Under the pieces are notes generated by a model, which made no database searches, was not told the origin of the DNA, and was given only the letters and a program-made list of their open reading frames with translations. This document shows positions 1,148 to 46,200 of a DNA stretch of 64,000 nucleotides, piece by piece (position 1 is the first letter of the stretch; each line of letters opens with the position of its first letter). Source of the stretch: Mytilus trossulus (lineage: Eukaryota); NCBI RefSeq assembly GCF_036588685.1, contig NC_086381.1, positions 3,906,001-3,970,000 on the forward strand, in the 5' to 3' direction. The position numbers were made by a program, and so were the translations under genes.

Positions 1148-1275
1148 GGCTCCAGCATGGTTATAAGCTATGACATTAGAGTAATATCTAACACCAGGTA
1201 TCAGGCTGATTCTAGACATATTGTATCCTGTGGCTGTCCCTGGTATAGCCTCTGGTATGGTCAGGATATCATAAC
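1072..1275 (-). CDS. Exon 27 (YDILTIPE...VDHVDPSSGIVYDGL), phase 1-1
   Basis: TTTATAG acceptor, G|GTAAGT donor; edge copy of the 83-bp array. Confidence 0.85.
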
Positions 1276-10200: not shown

Positions 10201-13200
10201 TTGCACTATTTACGTTTCATGAAAATTGGTACACATAATCTTCTTACGTAATCAAACCAAATGTCATTTTAAAGAAGAGGGGTCCGTGAACTCGTTTTTA
10301 AGTTAAATCAGTTTGAATGATAAAAATCAGCCGAAAACTGCATTTTTTCCCGATAAGTCACCGTTTGACGTCGCGAAAATAACAATTTACGCTAGCAACG
10401 TCATTACCTCCCCTGTAACTGTATCATATGCCCTTAAGTCTGTAGTTTTCTATGTTATGTTTTGTGTTCTGTTGTTTGTCTCTGTCCTTTTTAGTCATAG
10501 TCTTCTCATTTTATCTAATAAATAGATTTTTTTATGCTGTCCCGTTGTTATCTTTCGCCTCTATTCTGTTGTCAAGTTCTAGACACTACTGATTAAGGTA
10601 TGAAGCAAACACTCCCTGTGATATAGATATTGTACAAATCTCTGCAGTTTTATATTTTATCCTCCTCTATAAATATTAAACACAACTTTCAAGATATCAG
10701 TGACATGTCTACATGGATTTCTTCAGATAAAAACATTATTCATTGATCAACAATGATATATATAATAGATCATTTCCTTCCCCTCTAGATCTGTACATAG
10801 AAACTTACATCCCTGATGATCACTAAACCGAGGTACACACTCATAATATGCTAAAACAATTCCTGGTCAATAATATGGGACATGTGATATTCTAAGAGTC
10901 GGCCGAGATTAATCAAGCGTGCTTTTAAAGAGCAGAAAGGCAAATCTTTTAAACTTTGGGATCACTTAATTTTCAGAGAATTTAGCCGTGTAAAATGTCA
11001 TTGTTTATTGTATCAAACGGTGAATTTCGGTTCTCCTAATTTTGTAAAAAATGTAATCCCGCTTCGAAACCCGAAAACCTAATCACATCTGTAAAACATG
11101 TCTCTTGTCTCGAAAAGAATAAAGATACATATTCAATTTTATGAACGAAAAAGGGTACAATTTCTCTTCTACCTTGTGGTGTGCTATTTACAAATATTCC
11201 CTGATATGTTGACAATATATCCATTACATACAACCATATTGTCTCCACTCTCTCCATGTTATATTTAAAATAAACAAACCTCTAGATGGTGGAGTACTGT
11301 CCACAAACATCCCCTTGGAGGTAGAAGTAATACAAACCTCTAGATGGTGGGGTACTGTCTACCAACATCCCCTTGGAGGTAGAAGTAATACAAACCTCTA
11401 GATGGTGGTGTACTGTCTACAAACATCCCCTTGGAGGTAGAAGTAATACAAACCTCTAGATGGTGGTGTACTGTCTACAAACATCCCCTTGGAGGTAGAA
11501 GTAATACAAACCTCTAGATGGTGGTGTACTGTCTACAAACATCCCCTTGGAGGTAGAAGTAATACAAACCTCTAGATGGTGGTGTACTGTCTACAAACAT
11601 CCCCTTGGAGGTAGAAGTAATACAAACCTCTAGATGGTGGTGTACTGTCTACAAACATCCCCTTGGAGGTAGAAGTAATACAAACCTCTAGATGGTGGTG
11701 TACTGTCTACAAACATCCCCTTGGAGGTAGAAGTAATACAAACCTCTAGATGGTGGTGTACTGTCTACAAACATCCCCTTGGAGGTAGAAGTAATACAAA
11801 CCTCTAGATGGTGGTGTACTGTCTACAAACATCCCCTTAGAGGTAGAAGTAATACAAACCTCTAGATGGTGGTGTACTGTCTACAAACATCCCCTTGGAG
11901 GTAGAAGTAATACAAACCTCTAGATGGTGGTGTACTGTCTACAAACATCCCCTTGGAGGTAGAAGTAATACAAACCTCTAGATGGTGGTGTACTGTCCAC
12001 AAACATCCCCTTGGAGGTAGAAGTACAAACCTCTAGATGGTGGGGTGCTGTCTACAAACATCCCCTTGGAGGTAGAAGTAATACAAACCTCTAGATGGTG
12101 GAGTACTGTCTACAAACATCCCTTTGGAGGTTGAAGTAATACAAACCTCTACATGGTGGTGTACTGTCTACAAACATCCCCTTGGAGGTAGAAGTAATAC
12201 AAACCTCTAGATGGTGGAGTACTATCTACAAACATCCCCTTAGAGGTAGAAGTAATACAAACCTCTAGATGGTGGTGTACTGTCTACCAACATCCCCTTG
12301 GAGGTAGAAGTAATACAAACCTCTAGATGGTGGTGTACTGTCTACCAACATCCCCTTGGAGGTAGAAGTAATACAAACCTCTAGATGGTGGTGTACTGTC
12401 TACCAACATCCCCTTGGAGGTAGAAGTAATACAAACCTCTAGATGGTGGTGTACTGTCTACAAACATCCCCTTGGAGGTAGAAGTAATACAAACCTCTAG
12501 ATGGTGGTGTACTGTCTACAAACATCCCCTTGGAGGTAGAAGTAATACAAACCTCTAGATGGTGGTGTACTGTCTACAAACATCCCCTTGGAGGTAGAAG
12601 TAATACAAACCTCTAGATGGTGGTGTACTGTCTACAAACATCCCCTTGGAGGTAGAAGTAATACAAACCTCTAGATGGTGGTGTACTGTCTACAAACATC
12701 CCCTTGGAGGTAGAAGTAATACAAACCTCTAGATGGTGGTGTACTGTCTACAAACATCCCCTTGGAGGTAGAAGTAATACAAACCTCTAGATGGTGGTGT
12801 ACTGTCTACCAACATCCCCTTGGAGGTAGAAGTAATACAAACCTCTAGATGGTGGTGTACTGTCTACCAACATCCCCTTGGAGGTAGAAGTAATACAAAC
12901 CTCTAGATGGTGGTGTACTGTCTACCAACATCCCCTTGGAGGTAGAAGTAATACAAACCTCTAGATGGTGGTGTACTGTCTACAAACATCCCCTTGGAGG
13001 TAGAAGTAATACAAACCTCTAGATGGTGGTGTACTGTCTACAAACATCCCCTTGGAGGTAGAAGTAATACAAACCTCTAGATGGTGGTGTACTGTCTACA
13101 AACATCCCCTTGGAGGTAGAAGTAATACAAACCTCTAGATGGTGGTGTACTGTCTACAAACATCCCCTTGGAGGTAGAAGTAATACAAACCTCTAGATGG

Positions 13201-16200
13201 TGGTGTACTGTCTACAAACATCCCCTTGGAGGTAGAAGTAATACAAACCTCTAGATGGTGGTGTACTGTCTACAAACAACCCCTTGGAGGTAGACGTAAT
13301 ACAAACCTCTAGATGGTGGTGTACTGTCTACAAACATCCCCTTGGAGGTAGAAGTAATACAAACCTCTAGATGGTGGGGTACTGTCTACAAACATCCCCT
13401 TGGAGGTAGAAGTAATACAAACCTCTAGATGGTGGTGTACTGTCTACAAACATCCCCTTGGAGGTAGAAGTAATACAAACCTCTAGATGGTGGTGTACTG
13501 TCTACAAACATCCCCTTGGAGGTAGAAGTAATACAAACCTCTAGATGGTGGTGTACTGTCTACAAACATCCCCTTGGAGGTAGAAGTAATACAAACCTCT
13601 AGATGGTGGTGTACTGTCTACAAACATCCCCTTGGAGGTAGAAGTAATACAAACCTCTAGATGGTGGTGTACTGTCTACAAACATCCCCTTGGAGGTAGA
13701 AGTAATACAAACCTCTAGATGGTGGTGTACTGTCTACAAACAACCCCTTGGAGGTAGACGTAATACAAACCTCTAGATGGTGGTGTACTGTCTACAAACA
13801 TCCCCTTGGAGGTAGAAGTAATACAAACCTCTAGATGGTGGGGTACTGTCTACAAACATCCCCTTGGAGGTAGAAGTAATACAAACCTCTAGATGGTGGT
13901 GTACTGTCTACAAACATCCCCTTGGAGGTAGAAGTAATACAAACCTCTAGATGGTGGTGTACTGTCTACAAAAATCCCCTTGGAGGTAGAAGTAATACAA
14001 ACCTCTAGATGGTGGTGTACTGTCTACAAACATCCCCTTGGAGGTAGAAGTAATACAAACCTCTAGATGGTGGTGTACTGTCTACAAACATCCCCTTGGA
14101 GGTAGAAGTAATACAAACCTCTAGATGGTGGTGTACTGTCTACAAACATCCCCTTGGAGGTAGAAGTAATACAAACCTCTAGATGGTGGTGTACTGTCTA
14201 CAAACATCCCCTTGGAGGTAGAAGTAATACAAACCTCTAGATGGTGGTGTACTGTCTACAAACATCCCCTTGGAGGTAGAAGTAATACAAACCTCTAGAT
14301 GGTGGTGTACTGTCTACAAACATCCCCTTGGAGGTAGAAGTAATACAAACCTCTAGATGGTGGTGTACTGTCTACAAACATCCCCTTGGAGGTAGAAGTA
14401 ATACAAACCTCTAGATGGTGGTGTACTGTCTACAAACATCCCCTTGGAGGTAGAAGTAATACAAACCTCTAGATGGTGGTGTACTGTCTACCAACATCCC
14501 CTTGGAGGTAGAAGTAATACAAACCTCTAGATGGTGGTGTACTGTCTACCAACATCCCCTTGGAGGTAGAAGTAATACAAACCTCTAGATGGTGGTGTAC
14601 TGTCTACCAACATCCCCTTGGAGGTAGAAGTAATACAAACCTCTAGATGGTGGTTTACTGTCTACAAACATCCCCTTGGAGGTAGAAGTAATACAAACCT
14701 CTAGATGGTGGTGTACTGTCTACAAACATCCCCTTGGAGGTAGAAGTAATACAAACCTCTAGATGGTGGGGTACTGTCTACAAACATCCCCTTGGAGGTA
14801 GAAGTAATACAAACCTCTATATGGTGGTGTACTGTCTACAAACATCCCCTTGGAGGTAGAAGTAATACAAACCTCTAGATGGTGGAGTACTGTCTACAAA
14901 CATCCCCTTGGAGGTAGAAGTAATACAAACCTCTAGATGGTGGTGTACTGTCTACAAACATCCCCTTGGAGGTAGAAGTAATACAAACCTCTAGATGGTG
15001 GAGTACTGTCTACAAACATCCCCTTGGAGGTAGAAGTAATACAAACCTCTAGATGGTGGTGTACTGTCTACAAACATCCCCTTGGAGGTAGAAGTAATAC
15101 AAACCGCTAGATGGTGGTGTACTGTCTACAAACATCCCCTTGGAGGTAGAAGTAATACAAACCTCTAGATGGTGGGGTACTGTCTACCAACATCCCCTTG
15201 GAGGTAGAAGTAATACATATCTCAGCACTGTTACAGGAAATTAAGGTCACATAATAGGTCACTCCATCATGTAAATCTAGTCCAGTAAATACATAGGACC
15301 TGGCTATACCATTCACCTGGAAATTATGAAACAATATTAGGTACATCAGTAATTACATATATCATCTAGCAATATCATTCAATATAGCTGCCCATAAGGG
15401 AGCTATTAAACCAAGAGTTCCAAATAGTGAAGTTGAAATCATCCCTTCGTAAATTTTACGGACGCCATCACGAATTGGTTGACCGTTACTGAATAACCAT
15501 TTTACAGTTGATATCGAATATGTTTCTTACATCGTAACTACAATCCCCTTCCCTTTTTAGCTCACCTAGCCCGAAGGTCCAAGTGAGCTTTTCTCATCAC
15601 TTTGCGTCCGTCGTCCGTCGTCGTCCGTCGTCGTCCATCGTCCGTCGTCGTCCGTCGTCGTCCATCGTCCGTCGTCGTTAACTTTTACAAAAATCTTCTC
15701 CTCTGAAACTACTGGGCCAAATTAAACCAAACTTGGCCACAATCATCATTGGGGTATCTAGTTTAAAAAATGTGTGGCGTGACCCGGCCAACCAACCAAG
15801 ATGGCTGCCATGGCTAAAAATAGAACATAGGGGTAAAATGTAGATTTTGGCTTAGAACTCTGAAACCAAAGCATTTAGAGCAAATCTGACATGGCGGTAA
15901 AATTGTTAATCAAGTGAAAATCTATCTGCCCTGAAATTTTCAAATGAATCGGACAACCGGTTGTTGGGTTGCTGCCCCTGAATTGGTAATTTTTAAGGAA
16001 ATTTTGCTGTTTTTGGTTATTACCTTGAATATTATTATAGATAGAGATAAACTGTAAACAGCAATAATGTTCAGCAAAGTAAGATCTACAAATAACTCAA
16101 CATGACAAAAATGGTCAGTTGACCCCTGAAGGAGTTATTGCCCTTTATAGTCATTTTTTACCAATTTTTCGTAAATTTTTGTTATCTTTTACAAAAATCT

Positions 16201-19200
16201 TCTCCTCTGAAACTACTGGGCCAAACTTTACTAAACTTAGCCACAATCATTATAAGGGTATCTAGTTTAAAAAATATGTCCGGTGACCCGGCCATCATGG
16301 CTATAAATAGAACATCGGGGTAAAATGTAGATTTTGTCTTATAACTTTGAAACCAAAGCATTTAGAGCAAATCTGACAAGGTGTTAAATTATTTATCAAG
16401 TCAATGTCTATCTGCCCTGAAATTTTCAGATGAATTTGATAATAGTTGTTGTGTTGCTGCCCCCAAATTGGTAATTTTTATGGTAATTTTGCCGTTTTTT
16501 GTTATCACCTTGAATACACTATAGATAGAGATAAACTGTAAACAGCAATAATGTTCAGCAAAGTAAGATCTACAAATAAGTCAACATGACAAAAATGGTC
16601 AGTTGACCCCTGAAGGCGTTATTGCCCTTTATAGTCATATTTTACCAATTTTTCGTAAATTTTTGTTATCTTTTACAAAAATCTTCTCCTCTGAAACTAC
16701 TGGGCCAAACTTAACCAAACTTAGCCACAATCATTGTTAGGGTATCTAGTTTAAAAAATGTGTCCGGTGACCCGGCTACCATTGCTATAAATAGAACATC
16801 GGGGTAAAATGTAGATTTTGGCTTATAACTTGGAAACCAAAGCATTTAGAGCAAATCTGACAAGGTGTTAAATTGTTTTTCAAGCGAAAATATATCTGCC
16901 CTGAAATTTTCAGATGAATTTAATAATTGTTGTTGTGTTGCTGCCCCCCAATTGGTAATTTTTAAGAAAATTTTGCCGTTTTTGGTTATTATTTAATACT
17001 ATTATAGATATAGATAAACTGTAAACTGCAATAATGTTCAGCAAAGTAAGATCTACAAATAAGTGAACATGACCAAAATGGTCAGTTGACCTCTTAAGGA
17101 GTTATTGCCCTTTATAGTCAATTATTAACAATTTTCATTAGTTTTTACAAAATATTTTCCTCTGGAACTAAAGAGCCAAGTTCATTATAGATAAACAAAA
17201 TTGTAAGTAGCAAGTATGTTCAGTAAAGCAAGATCTCGAAATACGTCATCATCACCAAAACACAATTTTTTCATGAATCCATCTGACGATCTGTTTTCTT
17301 TGTTTGATATGCATATATACCAAGTTGAGCGACACAGGCTCTTAAGAGCCTCTAGTTATGAGTGTGACCTATCGAGTAGGAATATTTACCGGGTTTCTAA
17401 TAACATGTGGAGCAGGATCGGCTTCCCCTACCGGATCACTTGAGATCATCCCACAATTTGTTGGGGTTCGTGTTGCTCAGTCTTTAGTTTTCTATGTTGT
17501 TCCTTGTGAACTTTTGTATGTCTGTTTGTCTTTTCCATTTTTAACCATAGCGTTGTTAGTTTATTTTCGATGAATGAGTTTGACTATTCCTCTGGTGTGT
17601 TTCGCCCCTTTTTTCTGACGGCCATAGCAAAATCAAACCACCCATAACATGTTCAGACATTCATAGACTAGATTCAGCTTTTTGAGATATTATTAGAGAA
17701 CAATAAACAGTTCGACAGTACATCCATACGACATACCTCTACTGTTCATGTTTAAGTGATTAAACGATTAATTCTACACATGTATTATGTTATCTGTATT
17801 TGGAGGCCCATAATCAAAGTACTGTGTACAGGCAACTGTGCTTGGTTAACCTAACAGATCACTAAATATTGGTATTAACCAAGTGGTGCATTTGACTATA
17901 ATGGTTCTTAACAAATCACGAATTTCCATCACTATTGTCCATTCGTGATGGTGGGAGCTCAATATATATTTTGTGTGTTGTGTTTTATGTGTTTTATATG
18001 CATGTACTGTACTGATTGTGTGTCATGAATGGATTCGCAATATCCTTTGAAAGTCTAGATATATTATACGACTGACGCAAAAAACAAATTATAAAATTAG
18101 TCGCTTCACAAATTGCCTTGGGATTTTAAAACATATTTCTTGGTAACATCTGGACGGAAATTATATATGATATACAATTAGATTACTGTTTACCCCTATA
18201 CTTCTTTTTCTGTGAGGAAAACACTCTTCATCTCCCCTTATAAAAAACAGAGACAATGTATTCTTAATGTAATATGCACTATCTCCTTTATAGAGAAATT
18301 TAAGAGCAAACTTACTGACTGTGAAGACAACATGAATTCTCCTCCAATATGAGAATTGATAGACAGATACTGTCTTTTTATATATGACTCATCATCATCA
18401 ACAGCCCATTCAACTTTCATAGATGTTCTATAAATCTGTGTCAACCCCTTAATTCCAAAGTCAACAGAGAATGTTGGTTGTTTTGTCATAACTGGTGGCG
18501 TGTTGTCCACAATAAAACCATTCGATGATGATTCAGACCACAAACCTAAAAAGATAGCATTACAGTTAATTATACCACTGGTGTATCTTTGAAAACAACA
18601 AAATATTATGTTTTCTAATTTTCATAATTACTTTTCTGAGTAAAGCGGAATATTATATTGTACCTTAATGACTTGTAAAATTTCAAATCAATTTAAGCTC
18701 GTAATCAATTTTTACAACTGACTACAAAAACAAGTATTCGCATATGAAATATAAATCTTCTTGATTCCACAAAATCTGGTAAGGTTTAAGTTCTTATCGA
18801 TTAACCCATAACATGTGTTCACTTAAAGATAAAACTTCGTGTAGGAATCACGATTTCTTGCTTGCCGTAACAACATAGTTCAATTGTTTCAGTCTCCGAC
18901 TAAAGTCATCAAAAACTTGCAACTAACAATAATTATTTACAAATTGAGAATTTTGAAATTTCACAGTTACAATTTACAAATTGACAATTAATGAATTAAA
19001 AGTTTTGACCCCGTTGTCCTGCCATACAATGTAGTTCTGAAATATTAATTTCACAATTGATAGCTGCTATGTTTCTTATGTCGTAACTACACCCCGTTTC
19101 ATTTTACAAGAATGTAACCTACATGTACTAAATTAAACTTATTACCAGATTTGTACTTACATGGACAACACGACGGCTGCAACATGTGGAGCAGGATCTG

Positions 19201-22200
19201 CTTACCCTTCCAAGAGAACCTGATATCACGCCCAGTTTTTGATGGGGTTCGTGTTTAGTCTTTAGTTTTTTGTGTTGTGTTTGTGTACTATTGTTTGTCT
19301 GTTTGTCTTTTCTTTTTATAATAATGAAAAAGACAAACAGACAAACAATAATCATGGCGTTGTCAGTTTATATTTAATTAATTAGTTTGAATTTCCCTCT
19401 GATAACTTTCGCCCCTCTGCTATAATACAAGAATAATCAATATTTTCAACGTAAGGAAATGCCTGTATAAATTCAGGAATATTGCTGTTGTATTCCATTC
19501 GTTTGGTTAATTTGAGGTTTTGCCATTTGATACAGGAGTTTTTCTTTTAAATTTTCCTTGGAGTTTTTTTTATCTTACTTTTTACTACATTGCATCACAT
19601 GTTTTGCTATGTGGCAATAAAAATGATGTCTGAGTACATACCAGCTTTATTATACGCCCTTATTGTTACATATACTCTCTTGTTCAAAGGAAGGTCAAGG
19701 TTGAAATTAGTAGAATTCAGTAATGCTGCAGTCTCTGTCAGATGGAGTTCTATAGAGGGCACTATGTCATCATAACCTGGCTTTGTTCCTGCCCTCCAAG
19801 CATACTTCTGGAGGCCAGATTGAGGGTCATCAAACCCATACCACTTGGCTGATATGTAGATACTGTGAAGTAGAAATAAAAACTGTCAGATGGGGCTCTA
19901 TAAGGGTACTATGTCATCATAACGTGTAGAGACCAGACTGAGGGTCATCAAACCCATACCACTTGGCTGATAGGTAGATCCTGTGTAGTAAAATTACGAC
20001 TGTATGATTGCTATCTAAAAGAATACTGTTGCCTTCCATAGATATACATATCTGAGGTTCCTCAAGCTCACAGGCTACTTGGCTGATAAGGAATATTATA
20101 ATTAAAGTATATGTTTGTAGCTGTAATATCTCATCAAATGGAAACCACTTTACTGGTTGGCTTATTAAGAAATATGATTTCATATCTATACGGGTCTATC
20201 TCTCTTTACATATGATCATTTATCAGAGAAACGTAAGGTTGTCATTTGGTCCGCAGTATTTGAAATAACATATTAATATTAAGTAAATGACTTATGCATT
20301 GATAGACGAACTATAATATAAGAAAAACTGCAATTTTAAGAATAGACATACGTCATTGATTGATATTCTGTGTCATAAAATCCTGTTCCATCTTGTACTG
20401 TACCAGATGTCGGTGGACTGTTGTCTATAATCACACCATCTGATGTCACAGTGGTACACATGTCTGCTGTGTTACATGCCGTTACTGTGGTATAATATCT
20501 CAGTCCTGTACCAAGATGGATGTTCCTTAATGTAAATTCTGAAATATTACAAAGTATACATTTGTAAGTGTATGTGGTGAGGGTGTGTCATCTTACACAT
20601 GTGGTCCGTTTGTTGTAATATCCCAGTCCTGTTAATACAAGGTGAATGTTCTCATATGCAAATTCTCAGGTTGAAAACCTAAATTAGAAAGATACATGTT
20701 TTTATGTTACTCATGCTCACTTTGAATTGACATATGTTTGATACACATTTGCCATGAAACACATGGTCAGTTGGTGTTATATCTCAGTCCCGTGTCAAGA
20801 TGATTAGATACAAGAAGATGGGGTATGATTGCCAATGAGACAGCTCTCCATCCAAGTCTCAATTTATGAAAGTAAACCATTATAAGTCAAAGTACGGTTT
20901 TCAACACGGAGCCTTGGCTCACATCGAACAGCAAGATATAAAGGGGCCCCAAAAAGTTACAATTGTAAAACCATTTAAACGGAAAAACCAACGGTCGTAT
21001 CTTTATTAAAAAAAGAAACGAGAACACTAATAAACTACAGCCACAGACGACAACTACTGAACATTAAATCCCTGATGTAGGAAAGGTGAAAACAAATGCA
21101 GCGGGTTTACACATTTTAATGGTACCAAACTTTCATCCTCATCTGAAACAATAATGTCACATAACAACATAGAAAACACACTATAAAATATCAATTAAAA
21201 CGACCTAACTCAATCAAACGACAAAGTAATACACGTGAACAAACACTGAACGAATAAATTTGATCTATGGTACAATGTTAATACAAAATAAATAAAATAA
21301 GGTATGAATAATTAGAGAAACAGTATTTTACCGCTGTTAAATGTTCATTAATGTATGTTCTAAAATAAAACTTTCTATTGAAGCTATTTATAATAACTGA
21401 TTGTTAAAGCTAGCAATTTAAGAGTTATTCCAAATTCACACATACACAGAACTCGAAAATTATTTGTTATTTCTTATAAAACGTTTGAATGCCAGAACAG
21501 TTACACAATATAAGTCCTAATTTTCTAGGCGTAAAATTAGGTTTGACTGTCGTCGTAACATACTCCTGTTATATCTTGACATTGGGGACAGGATTGCCTG
21601 GAATATGGTACCACGATTTTGGTTAATGTTGGGGGATACACTCTGATATTATTAGTTCCATTAGTTGCAAGGCGTGTTAGTGACCTAATAATGACAACAA
21701 TAACAACGTATTACGTTTTAATGTTTTTTATGAATTTATTTTAGTCGTTCATTTTTTATTTCTTCACCTTCACCTTTCGTGTTGTTTTTATAAATGCATG
21801 ATAACACCATTACTTACCGTGTTTTGAAATAAGCCACGACTATATCATATGTAACTACTAGACTGGTCTATAGAAGCATACATAAATTCCATGATAAAGT
21901 AAGATTCAATGAAAACTATACATACCATATGTAATCCCCACAGCCTGTTCCTGTAATATATCTTCACATTGAGGACAGGTCCCAACAGAAACATAATAAT
22001 CTTTAATAGTGGAGTGAGATTCATGGAAACCTTCCAAACAGGCATTTAGCACTTTAGTCTCTGTCTGGTAGTCAATGTCCTTGACAATTCCTGTCAGCTG
22101 ACTTTTATCTCCATCATACACATGGCCAGGTGTAGGTGGCGTTGTATCCACTTGGAAAGCCCAGGATGTAGCCAATGATGATAATCCTGCCTTGTTGAAT

Positions 22201-25200: not shown

Positions 25201-28200
25201 TGTTACACAATTATACACATTCAAGTTTTGAAATCGATAGCTGTCATCGTAGAAAGACTGATGTTCATGTGTGTATGTTATCAGACAATTTGTGTGATTC
25301 TTATTGCTCTAAAGAGATGTTTGAAAACAAACAGAGCGTATAAAAGAAACCGTTTATTCGATATTAATACGTCATTGGAATGCGACTGCAATACACATTC
25401 TGAGGTCACGCAGGTTCAAACAATAATCAGTCCGGCAGTGAGCGGAGCTTTAAAGCGATATCTGTATAGTATACAGATACAGCATAGCGATATCTGTAGG
25501 GCTTTATCTGTATAGTAGAACACCCAGTTGCAGGATAAAGGCCTAATAAACCATTATTGCCAGGGTCAAGTGATGACAGTAGAACCAGGTAAGCTAAACA
25601 CACATTTTTAGCCAATTCTTAAATAATATTAGTACCTGCCTATATATTGAATTGGAGACATGCAAGAACTAGCAACACATTTTATTCATTTTATTAAAAT
25701 GGAAATTTGTTCGTGGTGTTTGCGTAAGGTCAATATTTCGCACTACCAATTATTGAATTTCGATGAGAACACGCGTATGCTACACCTAGCAAATTTTTTT
25801 TTAAAGATGGACTTATTCGATCGCAAAAAGCTGTATACTTGAAGAGTACGGTAACATTACTTGGTTTGGTATATGACTATTTATGATTATGACAATATTA
25901 ATTTTAAATCATCTCAAAACAGAATTGCTGACTTCTTGGCTTACGTAGACTATTATTTTACATTTTATATGTATTGTAAACATTCTTTTATTCGAGTGTC
26001 ACTGATGAGTCTTTTGAAGTCGAAACGCGCGTCTGGCGTAAATATAGAATGTCAATTCTGGTACATTTTTTGTATCTATAATGAATTTGTTGTATGTTGC
26101 AAGCATTATATTAACAGTCCAAAGTATATATCGACATATAACAATGTAATACTTTACTTCTTTCGAGATACCTTTCAATGTTGCATAATACTTGTACCCG
26201 TTCTGAAGGTTTAGTTTTGGTAAAGCTTTGTGTTGTACTACTCCAATATTCTCAAAGGCATGGACATCATTTCCTCCGGAAATTGTGCCTGAAATATTAC
26301 AATATACATTATGTACTTCTGCTGTTTTCGATTTTATGATACACGGGTGCCACATGTGATACAGGGTCTGCTTACCCTTCCGGAGCACCTGGGATCACCC
26401 CAGAGTTTGGTGGGGTTCGTGTTGCTTAGTCTTTAGTTTTCTATGTTGTGTCTTCTGTACTATTATTTGTCTATTAGTCTTTTTATTTTTAGCCATGGCG
26501 TTGTCAATTTATTTTTGATCTATGAATTTGACTATCCCTCTGGTATCTTTCGTCCCTCTTTTAATTTTCAGGAAATGCAATTTTTCACCTAAATAAAGTT
26601 GGAATATGTCCATTTACAAAGTAATGCTAATTCATATTTAGTTCTTACAGCAAATATAAGGGAGATATGAAAATTAAATAGCAAAATGTAACTGCTGAAG
26701 CATACAGAAATGTTTCTTAATTATACGCTGTGCAGTTGTTTAATAGTACTTTTAAGTTCTAAAAATATATATGAAGACATTTTGAAAATGTAAAATGACA
26801 ATGAAGTTCGTCTAAAATGAATAAAAAGGTTTCATTTAGCATTGTCAATTTTACACATGCAAAACGACAATTACACGGTTATGTCAATGAAAATGTGAAA
26901 ATTCCACAATTGACATTATGGACCAATGAAATCTACTACTTACCAATACCCAGTAAGTATTGTTTGATACCAGTAGAATGTGGTCCTACTCCATATTCCT
27001 CTACGTCGTGGAATCCGTCCCAGTTGATATATAAGTCTGTAACGGTAGTCTGTAATACATGTGTACTTACATTAATGTGAATGTATAATATGTGTGCGGT
27101 AGATGAGGATTAAAAGACCGCTTTTTCGACTGTACTAATCCTCAACAAGAAACTACTTAATAACTGTTTTGCAGTTAGTGCTAGGGTAGATAGTATCTAA
27201 ATATAAGATCATATATCAAAGAACGTCTTTCAGGATCACATACCAATTTGCATCATAAAGAATTAAATAAACATGAGGCAAACAATAAATGCATTGGAGA
27301 AGCTGTTCAATTTTAACGATGATATGCACTTACTAGAGATGCTGATAGAGGTCTCAAAATGCATATGTTAAGCTGATAAGATATAGCATTAAAAAACGAG
27401 AATGCTCACCCATATTTTGCCCGATACACTTATCTTTAATATAAAATCCTTAAAAACAGTCTAGAATTATTTCCTACCTGATAAATTTGTTCTGGATTAG
27501 AACCAATCCACAATCTGCCTTCTACAGGTGGAGTCAGGTCCACAATTATACCATCGCTACAGGAGCTTATCTCAGGAAGAACTTCTATCCACGTCTCATG
27601 TTTAACTTTTGTAGCATCAGCATGGACACACACAGTGTAACGAGTACCATGAACTAACTCGTTATTTGTAAATTTTACATTTATAAACTCCTTTTCTAAA
27701 ACGATATTTCAAGACATACTTTACTTAATATGTTTTGTTTATAATTTGCATGTTGTTTATTTAGTTACACTCCAAACAGAATTAATGAAAACATTACCAG
27801 TGACTTCCTCAAAATGACTCCCAATTTAATATTTTTATGATTCCCGAACTTATCTGAGTTGTAAAAAGAGCGAAAATAATCGTCTTTACTTAAAGAGGAT
27901 ATGATACGAAATGAAAGTGCTATCCCTGCTATAACTTATACGTGTGTATTTCATAAATAAAGGCAACAGTAGTATACCGCTGTTCGAAATTCATAAATCG
28001 ATTGAAATCCGGGTTTCAAACTAAAACTGAGGGAAACACATCAAAAAGAAGAGAACTACGACAAAACAGAAACACAACATTAAAATGTAACACACGCAGA
28101 AACGAACTAAAATATAACAATGGCCATTTTCCCGACTTGTTACAGGACATAATAATAAAAAAAAATGTTATTATATGGTATTATACATATACCTGTATGA

Positions 28201-31200
28201 CCACATTTGATACTGTCTGGATGGTCACATGGTATTTTCAAATTCAGCTGATTAACTTGACGATAATATGTTGTAACATCTATGGCCTTGGCTTCTATAA
28301 CGGCATAGTCATAATTTTTATGTCGTAACTTTGGCCACACGGCTGAAATCACATTCTTGTATGGAGTATAATCTTCATCTGTTTCTGTCCACAATGCGTT
28401 TTGTTTAAGAACAACAGGTTTGCCGATATCAACTGAAATATATCGTTTAGATTTTTAACAATATTATGATGTATTAGAATTGGGTTAATGCCTGACAATC
28501 TTTGCTTACCATTAGAATTTGGAGCCCCTACGGCATCTATAACAATGTTCGGATGTATTAGAATTGGGTTAAATGCCATACAATCTTTACTTACCATTAG
28601 AATCTGGTGCGGGCCGTGCACCTACAGCATCAATAACAATGTTAGGGTATATTAGAATTGGATTGAATGCCTCACAATCTTTACTTACCATTAGAATCAG
28701 CCGCCCCTACAGCATCTATAACAATGTTAGGATGTATTAGAATTGGGTTAAATGCCTTACAATCTTTACTTACAAATAGAATCAGGAGCCCTACACCATC
28801 TATAACAATATTAGGATGTATTAGAATTGGGTTAAATGCCTGACAATCTTTGCCTACCATTAGAATCAGGAGCCCCTACACCATCTATAACAATATTAGG
28901 ATGTATTAGAATTGGGTTAAATGCCTGACAATCTTTGCCTACCATTAGAATCAGGAGCCCCTACACCATCTATAACAATATTAGGATGTATTAGAATTGG
29001 GTTAAATGCCTCACAATCTTTACTTACCATTAGAATCAGGTCCCCCTACAGCATCTATAACAATGTTAGGATGTATTAGAATTGGGTTAAATGCCGTACA
29101 ATCTTTACTTACCGTTAGAATCAGGAGCCCCTACAGCATCTATAACAATGTTAGGATGTATTAGAATTGGGTTAAATGCCTGACAATATTTGCTTACCAT
29201 TAGAATCTGGAGCCCCTACATCATCTATAACAATGTTAGGATGTATTAGAATTAGGTTAAATGCCTGACAATCTTTACTTACAAATAGAATCAGCCGCCC
29301 CTACAGCATCTATAACAATATTAGGATGTATTAGAATTGGGTTAAATGCCTGAAAATCTTTACTTACAAATAGAATCAGGAGCCCCTACACCATCTATAA
29401 CAATATTAGGATGTATTAGAATTGGGTTAAATGCCTAACAATATTTGCTTACCATTAGAATCTGGAGCCCCTACAGCATCTATAACAATGTTAGGATGTA
29501 TTAGAATTGGGTTAAATGCCTGACAATCTTTACTTACCATTAGAATCAGGTGCCCCTACAGCATCTATAACAATGTTAGGATGTATTAGAATTGGGTTAT
29601 ATGCCTGACAATCTTTACTTACCATTAGAATCAGGTCCCCCTACAGCATCTATAACAATATTAGGATATATTTGAATTGGATTAAATGCCTTACAATCTT
29701 TACTTACAAATAGAATCAGGAGCCCCTACACCATCTATAACAATATTAGGATGTATTAGAATTTGGTTAAATGCCTGACAATCTTTGCCTACCATTAGAA
29801 TCAGGAGCCCCTGCGGCATCTATAACAATGTTAGGATGTATTAGAATTGGATTAAATGCCTCACAATCTTTACTTACCATTAGCATCAGGAGCCCCTACA
29901 GCATCTATAACAATGTTAGGATGTATTAGAATTGGATTAAATGCTTCACAATCTTTACTTACCGTTAGCATCAGGAGCCCTTACAGCATCTATAACAATG
30001 TAAGGATGTATAAGAATTGGATTAAATGCCTCACAATCTTTACTTACCATTAGAATCAGGTCCCCCTACAGCATTTATAACAATGTTAGGATGTATTAGA
30101 ATTGGGTTAAATGCCTCACAATCTTTACTTTCCATTACAATCATTACCCCCTACACCATCTATAACAATGTTAGGATGTATTAGAATCGGATGTAATGCC
30201 TGACAATCTTTTACATTAGAATTCGGAGGCCCTACGGCATCTATAACAATGTTAGGATGTATTAGAATTTGATTAAATGCCTGACAATCTTTACTTACCG
30301 TTAGAATCAGGAGCCCCTACAGCGTCTATAACAATGTTAGGATGTATTAGAATTGGATTAAATGCCTGACAATCTTTACTTACCGTTAGAATCAGGAGCC
30401 CCTACAGCATCTATAACAATGTTAGGATGTATTAGAATTAGATTAAATGCCTGACAATCTTTACTTACCGTTAGAATCAGGAGCCCCTACAGCTTCTATA
30501 ACAATGTTAGGATGTATTAGAATTGGATTAAATGCCTGACAATCTTTACTTACCGTTAGAATCAGGAGCCCCTACAGCATCTATAACAATGTTAGGATGT
30601 ATTAGAATTAGATTAAATGCCTGACAATCTTTACTTACCGTTAGAATCAGGAGCCCCTACAGCTTCTATAACAATGTTAGGATGTATTAGAATTGGATTA
30701 AATGCCTGACAATCTTTACTTACCGTTAGAATCAGGAGCCCCTACAGCATCTATAACAATGTTAGGATGTATTAGAATTAGATTAAATGCCTGACAATCT
30801 TTACTTACCGTTAGAATCAGGAGCCCCTACAGCTTCTATAACAATGTTAGGATGTATTAGAATTGGATTAAATGCCTGACAATCTTTACTTACCATTAGC
30901 ACAAGGAGCCCCCATGGCATCTATAACAATGTTAGGATGTATCAGAATTTGATTAAATGCCTGACAATCTTTACTTACCGTTAGAATCAGGAGCCCCTAC
31001 ACCATCTATAACAATGTTAGGATGTATTAGAATCGGATGTAATGCCTGACAATCTTTTACATTAGAATTCGGAGGCCCTACGGCATCTATAACAATGTTA
31101 GGATGTATTAGAATTTGATTAAATGCCTGACAATCTTTACTTACCGTTAGAATCAGGAGCCCCTACAGCTTCTATAACAATGTTAGGATGTATTAGAATT

Positions 31201-34200
31201 GGATTAAATGCCTGACAATCTTTACTTACCGTTAGAATCAGGAGCCCCTACAGCATCTATAACAATGTTAGGATGTATTAGAATTAGATTAAATGCCTGA
31301 CAATCTTTACTTACCGTTAGAATCAGGAGCCCCTACAGCTTCTATAACAATGTTAGGATGTATTAGAATTGGATTAAATGCCTGACAATCTTTACTTACC
31401 GTAAGAATCAGGAGCCCCTACAGCATCTATAACAATGTTAGGATGTATTAGAATTAGATTAAATGCCTGACAATCTTTACTTACCGTTAGAATCAGGAGC
31501 CCCTACAGCTTCTATAACAATGTTAGGATGTATTAGAATTGGATTAAATGCCTAACAATCTTTACTTACCATTAGCACAAGGAGCCCCCATGGCATCTAT
31601 AACAATGTTAGGATGTATCAGAATTTGATTAAATGCCTGACAATCTTTACTTACCGTTAGAATCAGGAGCCCCTACAGCTTCTATAACAATGTTAGGATG
31701 TATTAGAATTGGATTAAATGCCTGACAATCTTTACTTACCGTTAGAATCAGGAGCCCCTACAGCATCTATAACAATGTTAGGATGTATTAGAATTAGATT
31801 AAATGCCTGACAATCTTTACTTACCGTTAGAATCAGGAGCCCCTACAGCATCTATAACAATGTTAGGATGTATTAAAATTGGGTTAAATGCCTGACAATC
31901 TTTACTTACCATTAGAAACAGGTGCCCCTACAGCATCTATAACAATGTAAAGATGTATTTGAATTGGAATAAATGCCTCACAATCTTTACTTATCATTAG
32001 AAACAGGTGCCCCTACAGCATCTATAACAATGTTAGGATGTATTAGAATTGGGTTAAATGCCATACAATCTTTACTTGCCATTAAGACAAGGAGCCCCTA
32101 CAGCATCTATAACAATGTTAGGATGTATTAGAATTGGGTTAAATGCCTGACAATCTTTACTTACCATTAGCACAAGGAGCCCCTACAGCATCTATAACAA
32201 TGTTAGGATGTATTAGAATTGGATTAAATGCCTGACAATCTTTACTTACCGTTAGAATCAGGAGCCCCTACAGCATCTATAACAATGTTAGGATGTATTA
32301 GAATTGGGTTAAATGCCTGACAATCTTTACTTACCATTAGCACAAGGAGCCCCTACAGCATCTATAACAATGTTAGGATGTATTTGAATTGGAATAAATG
32401 CCTCACAATCTTTACTTACCGTTAGAAACAGGTGCCCCTACAGCATCTATAACAATGTTAGGATGTATTTGAATTGGATGTAAAGCCTCTCAATCTTTAC
32501 TTGCCATTAGAATCAGGTGCCCCTACAGCATCTATAACAATGTTAGGATGTATTAGAATTGGGTTAAATGCCTGACAATCTTTACTTACCATTAGCACAA
32601 GGAGCCCCTACAGCATCTATAACAATGTTAGGATGTATTTGAATTGGAATAAATGCCTCACAATCTTTACTTACCGTTAGAAACAGGTGCCCCTACAGCT
32701 TCTATAACAATGTTAGGATGTATTAGAATTGGATTAAATGCCTGACAATCTTTACTTACCGTAAGAATCAGGAGCCCCTACAGCATCTATAACAATGTTA
32801 GGATGTATTAGAATTAGATTAAATGCCTGACAATCTTTACTTACCGTTAGAATCAGGAGCCCCTACAGCATCTATAACAATGTTAGGATGTATTAAAATT
32901 GGGTTAAATGCCTGACAATCTTTACTTACCATTAGAAACAGGTGCCCCTACAGCATCTATAACAATGTTAGGATGTATTTGAATTGGAATAAATGCCTCA
33001 CAATCTTTACTTACCATTAGAAACAGGTGCCCCTACAGCATCTATAACAATGTTAGGATGTATTAGAATTGGGTTAAATGCCATACAATCTTTACTTGCC
33101 ATTAAGACAAGGAGTCCCTACAGCATCTATAACAATGTTAGGATGTATTAGAATTGGGTTAAATGCCTGACAATCTTTACTTACCATTAGCACAAGGAGC
33201 CCCTACAGCATCTATAACAATGTTAGGATGTATTAGAATTGGATTAAATGCCTGACAATCTTTACTTACCGTTAGAATCAGGAGCCCCTACAGCATCTAT
33301 AACAATGTTAGGATGTATTAGAATTGGGTTAAATGCCTGACAATCTTTACTTATCATTAGCACAAGGAGCCCCTACAGCATCTATAACAATGTTAGGATG
33401 TATTTGAATTGGAATAAATGCCTCACAATCTTTAGCTACCGTTAGAAACAGGTGCCCCTACAGCATCTATAACAATGTTAGGATGTATTTGAATTGGATG
33501 TAAAGCCTCACAATCTTTACTTGCCATTAGAATCAGGTGCCCCTACAGCATCTATAACAATGTTAGGATGTATTAGAGTTGGGTTAAATGCCTGACAATC
33601 TTTACTTACCATTAGCACAAGGAGCCCCTACAGCATCTATAACAATGTTAGGATGTATTTGAATTGGAATAAATGCCTCACAATCTTTACTTACCGTTAG
33701 AAACAGGTGCCCCTACAGCATCTATAACAATGTTAGGATGTATTTGAATTGGATGTAAAGCCTCACAATCTTTACTTGCCATTAGAATCAGGTGCCCCTA
33801 CAGCATCTATAACAATGTAAGGATGTATTAGAATTGGGTTAAATGCCTGACAATCTTTACTTACCATTAGAATCAGGAGCCCCTACAGCATCTATAACAA
33901 TGTTCGGATGTATTAAAATTGGGTTAAATGCCTGACAATCTTTACTTATCATTAGAATCAGGTCCCCCTACAGCATCTATAACAATGTTAGAATTATTAG
34001 AATTGGATTTAATGCCTCACATCTTTACTTATCATTAGAATCAAGTGCCCCTACAGCATCTATAACAATGTTAGGATGTATTAAAATTGGGTTAAATGCC
34101 TGACAATCTTTACTTACCATTAGAATCAGGAGCCCCTACAGCATCTATAACAATGTTAGGATGTATTAGAATTGGATGTAATGCCTGACAATCTTTACCT

Positions 34201-37200
34201 ACCATTATAATCTGGAGCCCCTACAGCATCTATATCAATGTTAGGATGTATCAGAATTGGATTAAATGCCTGACAATCTTTACTTACCATAAGAATCAGG
34301 TGGCCCGACGGCATCTATAACAATGTTAGGATGTATTCGAATTGGATTGAATGCCTCACAATCTTTACTTATCATTAGAATCAGGTGCCCCTACAGCATC
34401 TATAACAATATTAGGATGTATTAAAGTTGGGTTAAATGCCTGACAATCTTTACTTACCATTAGAATCAGATACCCCTACAGCATCTATAACAATGTTAGG
34501 ATGTTTTAAAATTGGATTAAATGCCTGACAATCTTTACTTATCATTAGAATCAGGTCCCCCTACAGCATCTATAACAATGTTAGAATTATTAGAATTGGA
34601 TTTAATGCCTCACATCTTTACTTATCATTAGAATCAAGTGCCCCTACAGCATCTATAACAATGTTAGGATGTATTAAAATTGGGTTAAATGCCTGACAAT
34701 CTTTACTTACCATTAGAATCAGGAGCCCCTACAGCATCTATAACAATGTTAGGATGTATTAGAATTGGATGTAATGCCTGACAATCTTTACCTACCATTA
34801 TAATCTGGAGCCCCTACAGCATCTATATCAATGTTAGGATGTATCAGAATTGGATTAAATGCCTGACAATCTTTACTTACCATAAGAATCAGGTGGCCCG
34901 ACGGCATCTATAACAATGTTAGGATGTATTCGAATTGGATTGAATGCCTCACAATCTTTACTTATCATTAGAATCAGGTGCCCCTACAGCATCTATAACA
35001 ATATTAGGATGTATTAAAGTTGGGTTAAATGCCTGACAATCTTTACTTACCATTAGAATCAGATACCCCTACAGCATCTATAACAATGTTAGGATGTTTT
35101 AAAATTGGATTAAATGCCTGACAATCTTTACTTACCATTAGAATCAGGTGCCACTACAGCATCTATAACAATGTTAGGATGTATTAAAATTGGGTTTAAT
35201 GCCTGACAATCTTTGCTTACCATTAGAATCAGGAGCCCCTACGGCATCTATAACAATATTAGGATGTATTAGAATTGGATTAAATGCCTCACAATCTTTA
35301 CTTACCATTAGAATCAGGAGCCCCTACAGCATCTATAACAATATTAGGATATATTTGAATTGGATTAAATGCTTGACAATCTTTAATTTCCGTTGAAACT
35401 GTCGAGTACTGTTTGGCTTTGTTGTAGCCTCTTATAGAAAATCTTTTACATCGGGAGAAATCCATCGTACCATTCAAAACATACTCAAATAAAATCTGAA
35501 ATTATGAAAAAGCAAATAGGATTCCTTTAAGAAAAGATGTTCGTTTAAATATTTCAAAATCTTTTAGTTAACCATGTTTTTCCAGTGGACAGATGAATAT
35601 ATCACTTTTATTAGAAAACTGTATGTGTGGTTGTCTCTCCTAGGGATTGAAAGGTAACATCGGCTGTACATTAGCATTAGAAGTTTATTTTTATGTCCAT
35701 TAATTACTTACAGTTACCTGTAGGTGTCTATTTTTACATGTATTGAGAATCGTTTTTTGACATTTACCCAATTCTTTTTTATCAACAGAGGGCAACCAAT
35801 TATTCAATTGAAAATACAATACCTATGTATAAATCTGACATAATTCACTAAAAACTAAAATTCAATACAAAATGTACCTGATGTCCAATCGCTGTATAAT
35901 TTAATCTGGTCCACACCATGTACGTCTTTCCCTTTACAGAGTTATCTGTGATAACAAACTCATACTTATCAACTGCAGCATATTTTTCTACCAAATCCTC
36001 AATATCTGGGTCATAGAACTGCGCAAAAGACACCATTAGCTGGAAATATTATTGTAAAAAAATGCAGTTAGAATACAAAACGCTTTTGTTGACTTGCTAC
36101 TTTGTGCAATGTGTAAAGTTTGAATGTCTCACTTTTCACAAAACTAAATTCCTGTTTATTAATTACAAAATGAACACTTAACAAGCTCATGTCTATCTAC
36201 AACAGAGAAGAATCGTGATAATATATATCTTTTGAAGTATCCACAGATTGTTGAAGACTCATTTTGAGTACTTTTGTTTATCAATGAGTAACTCTCATCT
36301 GCGTTAATAACGTAATTGAACGCTTGACTCTTTTGACACATTTGGCAAATCCTACTTTTAAATATAACCAGTTTTATTTGCTAACTGAAAATTAAGCGGA
36401 ATAAAATAATTTAAGACAGCAGAGAAGATAATTCTGTTTAATTGGTTATTACTAACCGACTTAAATAAAAGAGTGAGTTATTATTACTGTAAATGTATAA
36501 TGTCTCTAGTCTGGTCAAAGGGTCAGAGTGTCCTACTTAATTAAACGATAAATTGTTGAGATTAGATAACTTGTTTTCACGTGCATAGAAATTTCTTTTA
36601 TGACCAATGCATGACCGGATATCATCTTTCTTATTGGTCAATGGCATTGCGGGTCAGCACGAGTTTACGTGTAAGTGCATTGTGGTCACTTCCTTTTATC
36701 ATCAGCATTGGATGTGTTAACTTGTGATTCTTATCAAACAATTTGTTCAAAATTATATGTGATTTTGCTTTTTATTCTATGGATAATTTTGGACTGGAGT
36801 GATTTCATTTTAGCTATTTCAGGTAAAATCGAACTGTACTTTTATTTTTAAGCTATTCTATGCTTACATTTTGTACAAACGTACAGTTAATTTTTTTTTT
36901 AACCATCCTTTCATTCGGATAAAACTCACTATTTAGATTTTTGCCAAACATGAGCAGTTGGTCAAATTCATTTCTTTGTCAAAGAGATATTGGGTCAATT
37001 TGAGTTTCATGTGGGTGGCGACACTATGCGTTTACGATCAAAATGTAATTATTTATCATTTATCTGATGATTAACCTAATTGTAATTTTACAAGTTACTG
37101 CATCCTGTACAGCATCATAATGTTTGCAGAACGTATATCCGCCTTATTTATTTGTAAGATACATGATTAGTTTAAATTTTACTACAATTAAAAATTGGAT

Positions 37201-43200: not shown

Positions 43201-46200
43201 GAAGGTAGATGGGGTGTCTAAATTATAATCCATAGAATTTAATGTTTAGCTAAAATGTAGTTTATATCATGCTTGCATTAAATAATAAAAAGAATGGGTC
43301 ACGGGGCTTATTTACACCCTACAGATTGTGCAAAATTGACAGATTTTGTGTAGAGTATGCATGAAAACTGCAATTTTTTTTCCAAAAAACGAAAACTACA
43401 TCATAGAATTTTGAGATAAAATATGAGAAATAGCTTTATTGTTATGCTTTCAGACATTGTCAGATAAGGGAAAAAAATGGGATCATGTAACTCTTTTTTC
43501 TTGCTACGTTATGAAATAGGTAAATTCCTCACACATTCTATTTTAAAGGTAACTATATCGGAAATCTCTGCCTTTACATTTGACTTGCCTCCCCTTACGT
43601 GGCAAAGTTAAATCAAACAAATGATTCTGTTTTTTGAAAAATACAACCATAAATATGATAGAACATGTCATTTTCTATATTGATATGATAATTCTTGCAC
43701 ATGACTTTCCCTTTCATGAATGTGACCTACCGGATTAGACCATTTACCGGATTTGATATATCATAAGCAACACAACGGGTGCCACATGTGGAGCAGGATC
43801 TGCTTACCCTTCCGGAGCACCTGAGATCACCCCTAGCTTTTGGTGGGGTTCGTGTTGTTTATTCTTTAGTTTTCTATGTTGTGTCATATGTACTATTGTT
43901 TGTCTGTTTTTCCTTTTCATTTTTAGCCATGGCGTTGTCAGTTTATTTTCGATTAATTAGTTTGACTGTCCCTCTGGTATCTTTCGTCCCTCTTTTACCT
44001 ATAACTCTCAAAATTTGCACATTTGATTAAAGACCGATTTTTTGTTTTCTGGTATTTCAAAATCCAAAAAGGAGGAAGACCTGTCTACCGTAAGAAACTA
44101 AAGCTTACTTCCAACACCTGATCTCTTCTCAATAGCAATATATGCATCAGGGGTGTATTTCTTTACATTAGATGGAACTGTCCAGTATGCTTTCAATGAA
44201 TTAGTGGACATTTGAATGTCAACATCATCTGAACAGGACAATCTGTGGTCCTAAAGGAAATAAATCAGACATTTTTGCATCATTTGGTTGTTATCAATAA
44301 ATTAATGCACATACATTTGGATGCATATTGAGCAGTACAATTTGTAGTCCTAACGATTGGAAGGTTAAACACCTTTTATACATGGAGTTGTTTTGATAAT
44401 TTGACTTAGTTTGTTATGTTTCTTTTGAAATTTATCAAGGAGAGGGTACCTAATACAGAAAGCTTACATTTTACCAAACTCCTACATAGTGATAGTTGTT
44501 TAATACCGTTTGTCGAATTCAGAAGTTGTTGGAACTACTATATAGTGATACTAGTAGTTGTTTTATACCGCTTGTTGAATTCACTCGTTATTGGAACTCC
44601 TATATAGTGATAGTTGTTTTATACCACTTGTGGAATTCACTTGTTGTTGGAACTTTGTTGGAACTCCTATATAGTGATAGTTGTTTTATACCGCTTGTCG
44701 AATTCACTCGTAGTTGGAACTCCTATATAGTGATAGTTGTTTTATACCGTTTGTCGAATTCATTCGTATTTGGAACTATGTTGGAACTCCTACATAGTGA
44801 TAGTTGTTTTATACCGTTGTCGAACTCACTCGTTGTTAGAACTTTGTTGGGTCTCCTACATAGTGATAGTTGTTTTATACCGCTTGTCGAATTTTCGTAG
44901 TTGGAACTCATATATGGTGATAGTTGTTTTATACCGCTTGTTCAATTCACTCATTTTTGGAACTCCTATATAGTGATAGTTGTTTTATGCCGCTTGTTCA
45001 ATTCACTCGTTGTTGAAACTCCTGCATAGTGATAGTTGTTTTATACCGCTTGTCGAATTCACTCGTTGTTAGAACTTCTATATTGTGATAGTTGTTTCAT
45101 ACCGCTTTTTGAATTCACTCGTTGTTGATAATTTATCACGTAGAACAGCAGTAATCACACTTAACAAGTTGTCCAGGCCAAGCAGCAAATCATATATAAA
45201 ACCATTCTGTAAAGTGGAGTAATCGAACCATGAGGGACCAATATATTACTGTCTGTGCGCTCAACATATTGAAATATTCAAGAATTTGCAAACAGCTAAG
45301 AGAATAGTGTTTTAACATATTTGGATATATAGATATAGGAAGATGTGGTATGCGTGCCAATGAGACCACTCTCCATCCACGTAACAATTTATAAAATTAA
45401 ACTGTTATAGGTCAAGATACGGCCTTCAACACGGAGCCTTGGCTTACACCGAACAGCACGCTATAAAGTGCCCCACCCATTACTAGTGTAATTCCATTCA
45501 AACGGGAAAATCAACATAGTTTTGAAGAAGAATCATTCTATAATATTGTGAAGATTATAGAACATTGACTTCTGCAGAAAGAAAAAAAAAAGAAAGATAA
45601 CGTGATACTAACCTCCATATGATGTTCTAATGATTTATCTGAAAAAGATAGCATCAATCTGAATTTCAGTTCGATAGTAATATCTCATATATCACACATC
45701 GGTGTTGACATGCCTTTGAATCGAAATGAAAAAGGTTGGGAACTCCTTTAAAAACTGTGACCACTTTACAATATCACAAAGTATCAACAACAATACCCAA
45801 CTTCAGAGTTAATTCTTAATAAGGATAAAGCGGTAAACTTGAAAAAAATGTTAAGGTGTATCAACCAACGAAATGAAGGAAAATAATGTTCCTTATTCAT
45901 GACGGTTATTTTCCTGATGAAATGGTGGGTTCTGTATACAGCTTATTCTTAGACTTGTTTAACTAGTATTTGTTTGGTTAAATTGACAAAGTTAGGGGAT
46001 AAAACCAAACATAAATAATGTGTTAACGTAACAAAAAAGTTTATTGCAATTGAATGTAAATCTGACAAGGAGGAATACAACAACGCTTTTGTAGTTGATA
46101 GTTCATACCCTTCATCTGAAATACACAAACATAAATATTTTTCTTTAGGTTTCTAACTTAATTTGTCTTGTTAGAATTAACTTACCAATCATATAACAAG

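What the first reader, a model, noticed from the sequence alone, without database searches (positions are those of the whole stretch)
28433..35305. A 6.9-kb intron made almost entirely of exon-derived repeat carrying ~80 strong donors
Seen: the intron between exons 9 and 10 is the 85-bp array from its first base to ~23 nt before the acceptor. Most units carry G|GTAAGT. Use of any distal donor would include GGT AAG TAA, an immediate stop. Unlike the other donor arrays, no unique intron body remains. Inference: either the old intron body was lost or the intron was built by the duplication; intron gain by tandem duplication is a recognised mechanism.
Basis: partly seen in the sequence, partly recalled or inferred. 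Interest (0 to 1): 0.7.

Follow-up and report, generated by a model that had tools for sequence, protein, structure and literature searches.

The report
Old intron overrun by splice-donor repeat
In a likely mussel gene, the last 79 bases of an exon plus its splice signal are copied about 80 times and fill all but 23 bases of an intron that is older than the repeat; the one assembled transcript seen splices at the first copy, so this is likely a tolerated, extreme case of a repeat type known from lancelets and humans, not a newly made intron.

Summary
The array is real. Intron 9 (35305-28433, minus strand, 6,873 nt) is 98% copies of the exon-9 end, with a 23-nt unique tail. '~80 strong donors' is too high: 51 of 81 donor positions read G|GTAAGT and 65 keep GT. 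Intron gain is refuted: 21 of 21 paralogues have a phase-1 intron here. 18 hold no exon copies; 3 grew their own donor arrays and kept 595-1,586 nt of unique body. A closer relative (86-90%, probably a paralogue) has a plain 521-nt intron. One spliced contig joins exon 9 to exon 10 at the first donor. Best reading: a 'mirage'/F7-IVS7-type donor minisatellite in an old intron whose body was likely deleted afterwards. No array-free strict orthologue was seen. One twist: each unit also reads as a 58-nt mini-intron plus an in-frame 27-nt pseudo-exon (58 of 80 units), and the best branch-point motif lies in repeat-derived sequence; no use was seen. This scan noted the class before, on other DNA of this genome and in other genomes.

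The parts
35878..36039 (-). exon 8 (162 nt)
   Evidence: Spliced contig of run X4, record 1078-1239; joint skips 382 nt with CT..AC ends
35306..35495 (-). exon 9 (190 nt, ends in phase 1)
   Evidence: X4 contig record 1240-1429; open frame
35306..35384 (-). 79-nt exon end that is the template of the repeat; differs from the array consensus at 4 of 79 sites, and no intronic unit is identical to it
35300..35308 (-). authentic, most upstream donor ATG|GTAAGT, the one used in the transcript seen
   Evidence: X4 loose end at 35306 continues with exon-10 letters
28433..35305 (-). intron 9, 6,873 nt, phase 1, position older than the array
28456..35384 (-). 85-bp minisatellite: 1 exonic, 80 full intronic and 1 partial unit; 57 distinct intronic unit types; includes an exact 593-bp seven-unit block duplication (35129-34537 and 34536-33944)
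35221..35247 (-). first of 58 latent 27-nt in-frame pseudo-exons (9 codons), each behind a 58-nt GT..AG stretch; no use seen
   Evidence: sequence reading only
28473..28479 (-). nearest yUnAy branch-point-like motif (A at -42), inside the last repeat-derived unit; use untested
28433..28455 (-). 23-nt unique tail with the acceptor; likely the remnant of the old intron's 3' end
   Evidence: contigs of the closer relative align 8 and 12 nt into it
28193..28432 (-). exon 10 (240 nt)
   Evidence: X4 contig record 1429-1669

Best explanation
Intron 9 is an old phase-1 intron shared by the whole gene family; the exon-9 end plus donor expanded head-to-tail into it to about 80 copies, the old intron body was likely deleted afterwards down to 23 nt, and splicing likely stays at the first donor because exon 9 is defined from its own upstream acceptor. 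Shown: the intron's age, the array's origin from its own exon, and first-donor splicing in one contig. Inferred: seeding by local tandem duplication, growth by unequal exchange or slippage (block duplications are visible), a deletion joining the last unit to the old 3' end, and removal of rare exon-extension products by nonsense-mediated decay (stop 3 codons past the donor, 76 nt before the next possible junction). The array is most likely a tolerated passenger.
For: 21 of 21 paralogues have the phase-1 intron; 18 have no exon copies and are 139-2,060 nt long. Three paralogues have their own donor arrays (periods 115, 83, 190; 69, 4 and 5 exon copies) and keep 595, 603 and 1,586 nt of unique 3' body. 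Each array's unit matches its own exon at 57-59 of 60 nt and the other three exons at 38-44 of 60, so there were four independent origins. In the sister pair L065/L066 the array sits at the donor and the 3' part of the body still aligns with the array-free sister. An 859-nt DNA contig of X13 spans exon 10 (1-204) and exon 9 (713-859), giving a 521-nt intron with no unit. A 2,132-nt spliced contig of X4 joins exon 9 (1240-1429) straight to exon 10 (1429-1669) and carries the exon's letters, not the array's, at 35343, 35351 and 35356. Variants in the units show no codon pattern (21/27/20 distinct variants at positions 1/2/3), and the donor GT columns vary about as the rest do (0.08 vs a mean near 0.055). 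Same build and outcome as F7 IVS7 (PMC1557585) and lancelet mirages (PMC3087553).
Against: No array-free strict orthologue or haplotype was seen, so the deletion is inferred, not observed; the ancestral intron of this copy could have been short. The X13 contig shares variants at 35397 and 35399 with second copies in X9 and X4, so it is probably a close paralogue. RNA evidence is one contig from one run under another organism label; contigs drop rare forms and cannot give proportions. X18 did not cover the junction. On a small matrix (27 sites) the decoy acceptors in the units (6.1-7.3 bits) score above the real one (5.3 bits), so strict silence is not obvious. No special fold masks the decoys or exposes the first donor (z = +1.09).
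Confidence: 0.88

Rival explanations
1. The intron was created by the tandem duplication itself (Rogers-type intron gain).
For: 98% of the intron is exon-derived; the duplicated segment holds both an AG and a GT; the mechanism is in print (PMC4974935, passages).
Against: 21 of 21 paralogues, at 42-72% amino-acid identity in exon 10, have the intron in the same phase. The acceptor used lies in unique sequence. A closer relative has a plain 521-nt intron. It would need loss and regain at the same nucleotide.
Confidence: 0.02
2. The array is used at a low but real level: splicing into a unit's TATAG acceptor and out of the next donor adds in-frame 9-residue cassettes, so the repeat is making new microexons and introns.
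For: 78 of 80 units have the AG; 58 of 80 give an in-frame 27-nt cassette with a GT donor. The AG scores at or above the real acceptor and has branch-like motifs upstream. The gene has a predicted 26-nt exon 5. PMC3087553 (Fig. 7 legend) proposes this route as a model.
Against: The X4 contig has no cassette. The two array-bearing X4 contigs (depth 3.2 and 3.4) run through the donor unspliced. There is no codon constraint on the units. One in three AGs is in frame by chance, and the same AG sits in exon 9 itself.
Confidence: 0.07
3. No deletion occurred: the ancestral intron of this gene copy was already very short and the array merely lengthened it.
For: Paralogue introns go down to 139 and 153 nt; no array-free orthologue was seen.
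Against: 6 + 23 = 29 nt of non-exon sequence is far below the shortest of the 21 paralogue introns (139 nt). The array ends in mid-unit, fused to the tail, and not at a donor followed by body as in L064 and L065. The closest relatives have 521, 559 and 2,000 nt.
Confidence: 0.04

Closest known systems
Amphioxus 'mirage' minisatellites (Adh3, globins BflGb6/BflGb9, troponin C, PGBD5); PMC3087553 and PMC3902484, passages seen
   Same: Tandem copies spanning an exon-intron boundary, with splice signals in many but not all units, reported not to disturb normal splicing; unit length 85 falls in the quoted 10-160 bp range.
   Different: About 80 copies and 6.9 kb here, against 2-7 copies in the globin and PGBD5 cases quoted; almost no unique intron left; seen at the same donor four times independently in one family.
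Human F7 intron 7 37-bp VNTR (PMC1557585; abstract and Discussion read)
   Same: First unit spans the exon-intron junction; downstream pseudo-donors; the most upstream donor is the one used.
   Different: F7 has 5-9 sites and mutational proof that the pseudo-sites work; here 64 distal GT sites over 6.9 kb, untested, plus an acceptor-like AG in each unit.
Chicken 'exon stuttering' (PMC12954441; 12 of 24 passages seen)
   Same: The exon edge with its donor or acceptor is copied through the adjacent intron; local origin; introns heavily repeat-covered.
   Different: There it is tied to GC-rich dot chromosomes, with 1-44 copies; here about 36% GC and 81 copies in an invertebrate.
[quoted passage not shown]
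   Same: Exonic sequence has become intronic by duplication.
   Different: No new intron position: the intron predates the duplication, and its acceptor is not supplied by the repeat.

Membership tests
mirage / splice-donor minisatellite | Tandem units span an exon-intron boundary of the host gene, the first unit being the real one | tested here: met
   unit = 79 nt of exon 9 + GTAAGT
mirage / splice-donor minisatellite | Local origin from the adjacent exon | tested here: met
   57 of 60 nt identical to its own exon vs 39-44 of 60 to three paralogue exons
mirage / splice-donor minisatellite | Many but not all units keep the splice signal | tested here: met
   65 of 81 GT; 51 of 81 G|GTAAGT
mirage / splice-donor minisatellite | Normal splicing at the exon-adjacent site | tested here: met
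   one spliced contig in one run, X4; minor forms not measurable
mirage / splice-donor minisatellite | Copy number varies between alleles or individuals | tested here: inconclusive
   array present in X2 and X9, but contig depth is no copy number
F7-IVS7-type pseudo-donors | Distal donors become active when the first is mutated | not testable with these tools
   needs a minigene
intron gain by tandem duplication | Intron absent at this position in relatives (phylogeny supports gain) | tested here: not met
   21 of 21 paralogues have it; 521-nt intron in the X13 contig
intron gain by tandem duplication | Both splice sites supplied by the duplicated segment | tested here: not met
   the acceptor used lies in the 23-nt unique tail

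The most novel reading that the evidence does not exclude
This intron has replaced nearly all its own sequence with exon copies, takes its branch point from exon-derived repeat, and carries 58 latent 58-nt-intron plus 27-nt-exon modules. If some are spliced in, a mirage array is caught turning into a bank of variable in-frame microexons, the route to new introns and exons that was proposed for lancelets as a hypothetical model.
Probability: 0.07. Interest if true: 0.65.

Novelty: new member of a known kind. Interest (0 to 1): 0.24.

Why it matters
As it stands it is an extreme but ordinary member of a known class, and it is not a case of intron gain. Its value is as a natural test. One intron holds 64 decoy GT donors and 78 decoy acceptors against 23 bases of its own, so correct splicing likely rests on the flanking exons. 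The same donor grew arrays four times in 22 family members, 18 of which are array-free controls. If the latent cassettes were used, it would show a repeat-driven route to microexons.

Tried and rejected
Intron gain: rejected. Assembly artefact: rejected. Selection against distal donors or for coding in the units: no sign. RNA fold masking the decoys: none in the first three units, z = +1.09. The closer 86-90% relative was not found in G000 (best non-self DNA match 78%; 72% protein); only the best candidates are scored, so this does not show absence. The first read-lay was swamped by a common interspersed repeat at about 27940-28165, so loose-end letters at the acceptor were not shown. X18 did not reach the junction; X13 showed no contig running into an array, which proves nothing about its organism. 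Protein naming failed: 7 single-exon peptides gave no Pfam hit above a curated cut-off, and the atlas gave no result. Exon 5 (26 nt) is a prediction picked from 6 candidates by its acceptor and its likeness to paralogues. The automatic junction for L069 ends 5 codons earlier than in the window and is the least sure of the 21. Seven paper searches listed no paper on such arrays in mussels; only listings were seen for those, and the library lacks most subscription journals. No supplements were read. A genome-wide count of such arrays was not made.

Full report
Setting. The window is G000:C9:3906001-3970000 in a 1.30-Gb, 541-contig genome. 'Mussel' is inferred from mollusc labels among the runs and from earlier notes of this scan; it was not tested. 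A minus-strand gene of at least 28 exons crosses the window; my model reads 1,613 codons without a stop. The protein could not be named.

Observation. Exon 9 is 35495-35306 and exon 10 is 28432-28193; the intron between them is 6,873 nt. TRF finds an 85-bp array of 81.6 copies at 28456-35385. The unit is the last 79 nt of exon 9 plus GTAAGT. There are 80 full intronic units and a partial one fused to a 23-nt unique tail. Exon-derived sequence covers 98.1% of the intron. The donor count needs correcting: 51 of 81 positions read G|GTAAGT, 65 keep GT, 5 are GC, 9 are GA and 2 are deleted. Extending exon 9 to any distal donor meets a stop three codons in. The array also stands in two DNA runs other than the likely source, X2 and X9, at roughly a hundredfold depth, and X9 matches the tail and junction without a difference over 28345-28465.

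Age of the intron. A protein search with exon 10 gave 22 matches in G000, the window's and 21 others. I fetched the upstream DNA of all 21. All 21 have a phase-1 GT-AG intron at this place, and 8 are colinear codon for codon. Eighteen have no exon copies and are 139-2,060 nt long. In run X13 one 859-nt contig carries exon 10 at letters 1-204 and exon 9 at 713-859, which leaves a 521-nt intron without units. It is 86-90% identical to the window. It shares variants with second copies in X9 and X4, so I take it as the closest paralogue lineage, not as the orthologue. Intron gain by this duplication is therefore refuted, although no array-free strict orthologue was seen.

Recurrence. Three paralogues have their own arrays at this donor, with periods 115, 83 and 190 and with 69, 4 and 5 exon copies. 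Each unit matches its own exon at 57-59 of 60 nt and the others at 38-44, so the four arrays arose independently. Those three kept 595-1,586 nt of unique body, and in L065 the 3' part still aligns with the array-free sister L066. The window's array instead stops in mid-unit and joins the tail. The simplest reading is a later deletion of the old body (inferred). Contigs of the closer relative align 8 and 12 nt into the tail, which is weak support for the tail being the old 3' end. The last unit breaks just before its own AG, leaving no AG in the last 59 nt before the acceptor's own; most breakpoints would do that, so it is not evidence of selection.

Splicing. A 2,132-nt contig of X4 skips intron 8 with canonical ends and carries exon 9 at 1240-1429 and exon 10 at 1429-1669. 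Its loose end at 35306 reads as exon 10, and it has exon-specific letters where the units differ. The first donor is thus used, with no extra unit. Two low-depth X4 contigs hold unspliced array. This is one run, and contigs drop rare forms.

Each unit also holds TATAG|A (78 of 80 units), so it reads as a 58-nt GT..AG stretch plus a 27-nt, frame-keeping pseudo-exon; 58 of 80 have both sites. On a matrix from 27 sites of this gene these acceptors score 6.1-7.3 bits against 5.3 for the real one. The tail has no yUnAy motif; the nearest lies at -42 in the last unit. No use of these sites was seen, and unit variants show no codon pattern (21/27/20). Exon definition (established knowledge, not tested here) would favour the 190-nt and 240-nt real exons over 27-nt modules.

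Mechanism. Shown: old intron, local exon-derived unit, block duplications inside the array, first-donor splicing in one contig. Inferred: seeding by tandem duplication, growth by unequal exchange or slippage, deletion of the body, upstream-donor preference, and decay of rare extended transcripts. Exon 9 differs from the array consensus at 4 of 79 sites, and no unit is closer than 4 differences; with the array's presence under more than one organism label, this suggests it is not brand new.

Known kind. Lancelet 'mirages' are tandem copies of exon-intron boundaries that do not disturb splicing (PMC3087553, PMC3902484; passages). In human F7 intron 7 only the most upstream of 5-9 identical donors is used (PMC1557585; abstract and Discussion). 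Chicken 'exon stuttering' has the same build (PMC12954441; passages). The Rogers model needs both sites from the duplicate and a phylogeny of gain (PMC4974935; passages); neither holds. The mirage and stuttering papers were leads from earlier notes of this scan, which also lists many such arrays elsewhere in this genome (unchecked). Seven searches listed no paper on mussels.

Verdict. A real, extreme member of a known class; not intron gain. Interest 0.24. The microexon reading has probability about 0.07 and would deserve 0.65.

Noticed in passing
window 71-1148, 1211-1600, ~6790-6910, 8843-9582, 11274-15217, ~19900-20000, intron 16, 54127-64000 (runs to 66815 beyond the window): Further exon-edge copies in the same gene: donor side 83, 124 and 58 bp arrays and two copies at exon 24; acceptor side 128 bp, two copies at exon 18, one at exon 17, and a 151-bp x 84 array.
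   Followed up: partly
L081-L084 and L080 (beyond the window, C9:3.886-4.010 Mb): More arrays in what appears to be the same gene: 108 x 36, 33 x 4, 46 x 95, 59 x 52, 75 x 7.5, 88 x 7; several hold donor- or acceptor-like motifs. Borders not checked.
   Followed up: no
paralogues at C14:20.12-20.16 Mb, C14:20.27-20.31 Mb, C9:38.89-39.00 Mb, L066: Splice-motif arrays at other introns: 59 bp x 40 and x 92, 91 bp x 4 and x 16, 50 x 23, 77 x 4, 49 x 17, 105 x 10, 38 x 23, 127 x 5. The paralogue at C9:15.7 Mb has none in 50 kb.
   Followed up: partly
window 35306-35384: The exon end has Gln and Tyr where the array consensus has Leu and His; 10 and 1 of 74 regular units share the exon's letters, and the unit at 29701 has both. 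Exon and array may exchange sequence; direction unknown.
   Followed up: partly
runs X2, X4, X9, X13 laid on 28193-28432 and 35306-36039: A second gene copy at 86-90% identity appears in these runs but was not found in G000; possibly present in some animals only, or missed by the search.
   Followed up: partly
window 45613-45638 (-): Predicted 26-nt microexon (exon 5), with like-sized counterparts in two paralogues.
   Followed up: partly
window 52590-53050 (-): Fragment that looks like the end of a reverse-transcriptase gene in intron 1 (recognised from recall, not searched).
   Followed up: no
window 15808-17135 and 44477-45127: Intronic arrays not derived from exons (484 bp x 2.7; 56-123 bp, about 11 copies); about 500-bp look-alikes occur in paralogue loci.
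   Followed up: no
L011 ~4135-4345: The 115-bp donor array of the C9:38.9 Mb paralogue is interrupted by about 210 nt of unrelated sequence.
   Followed up: no
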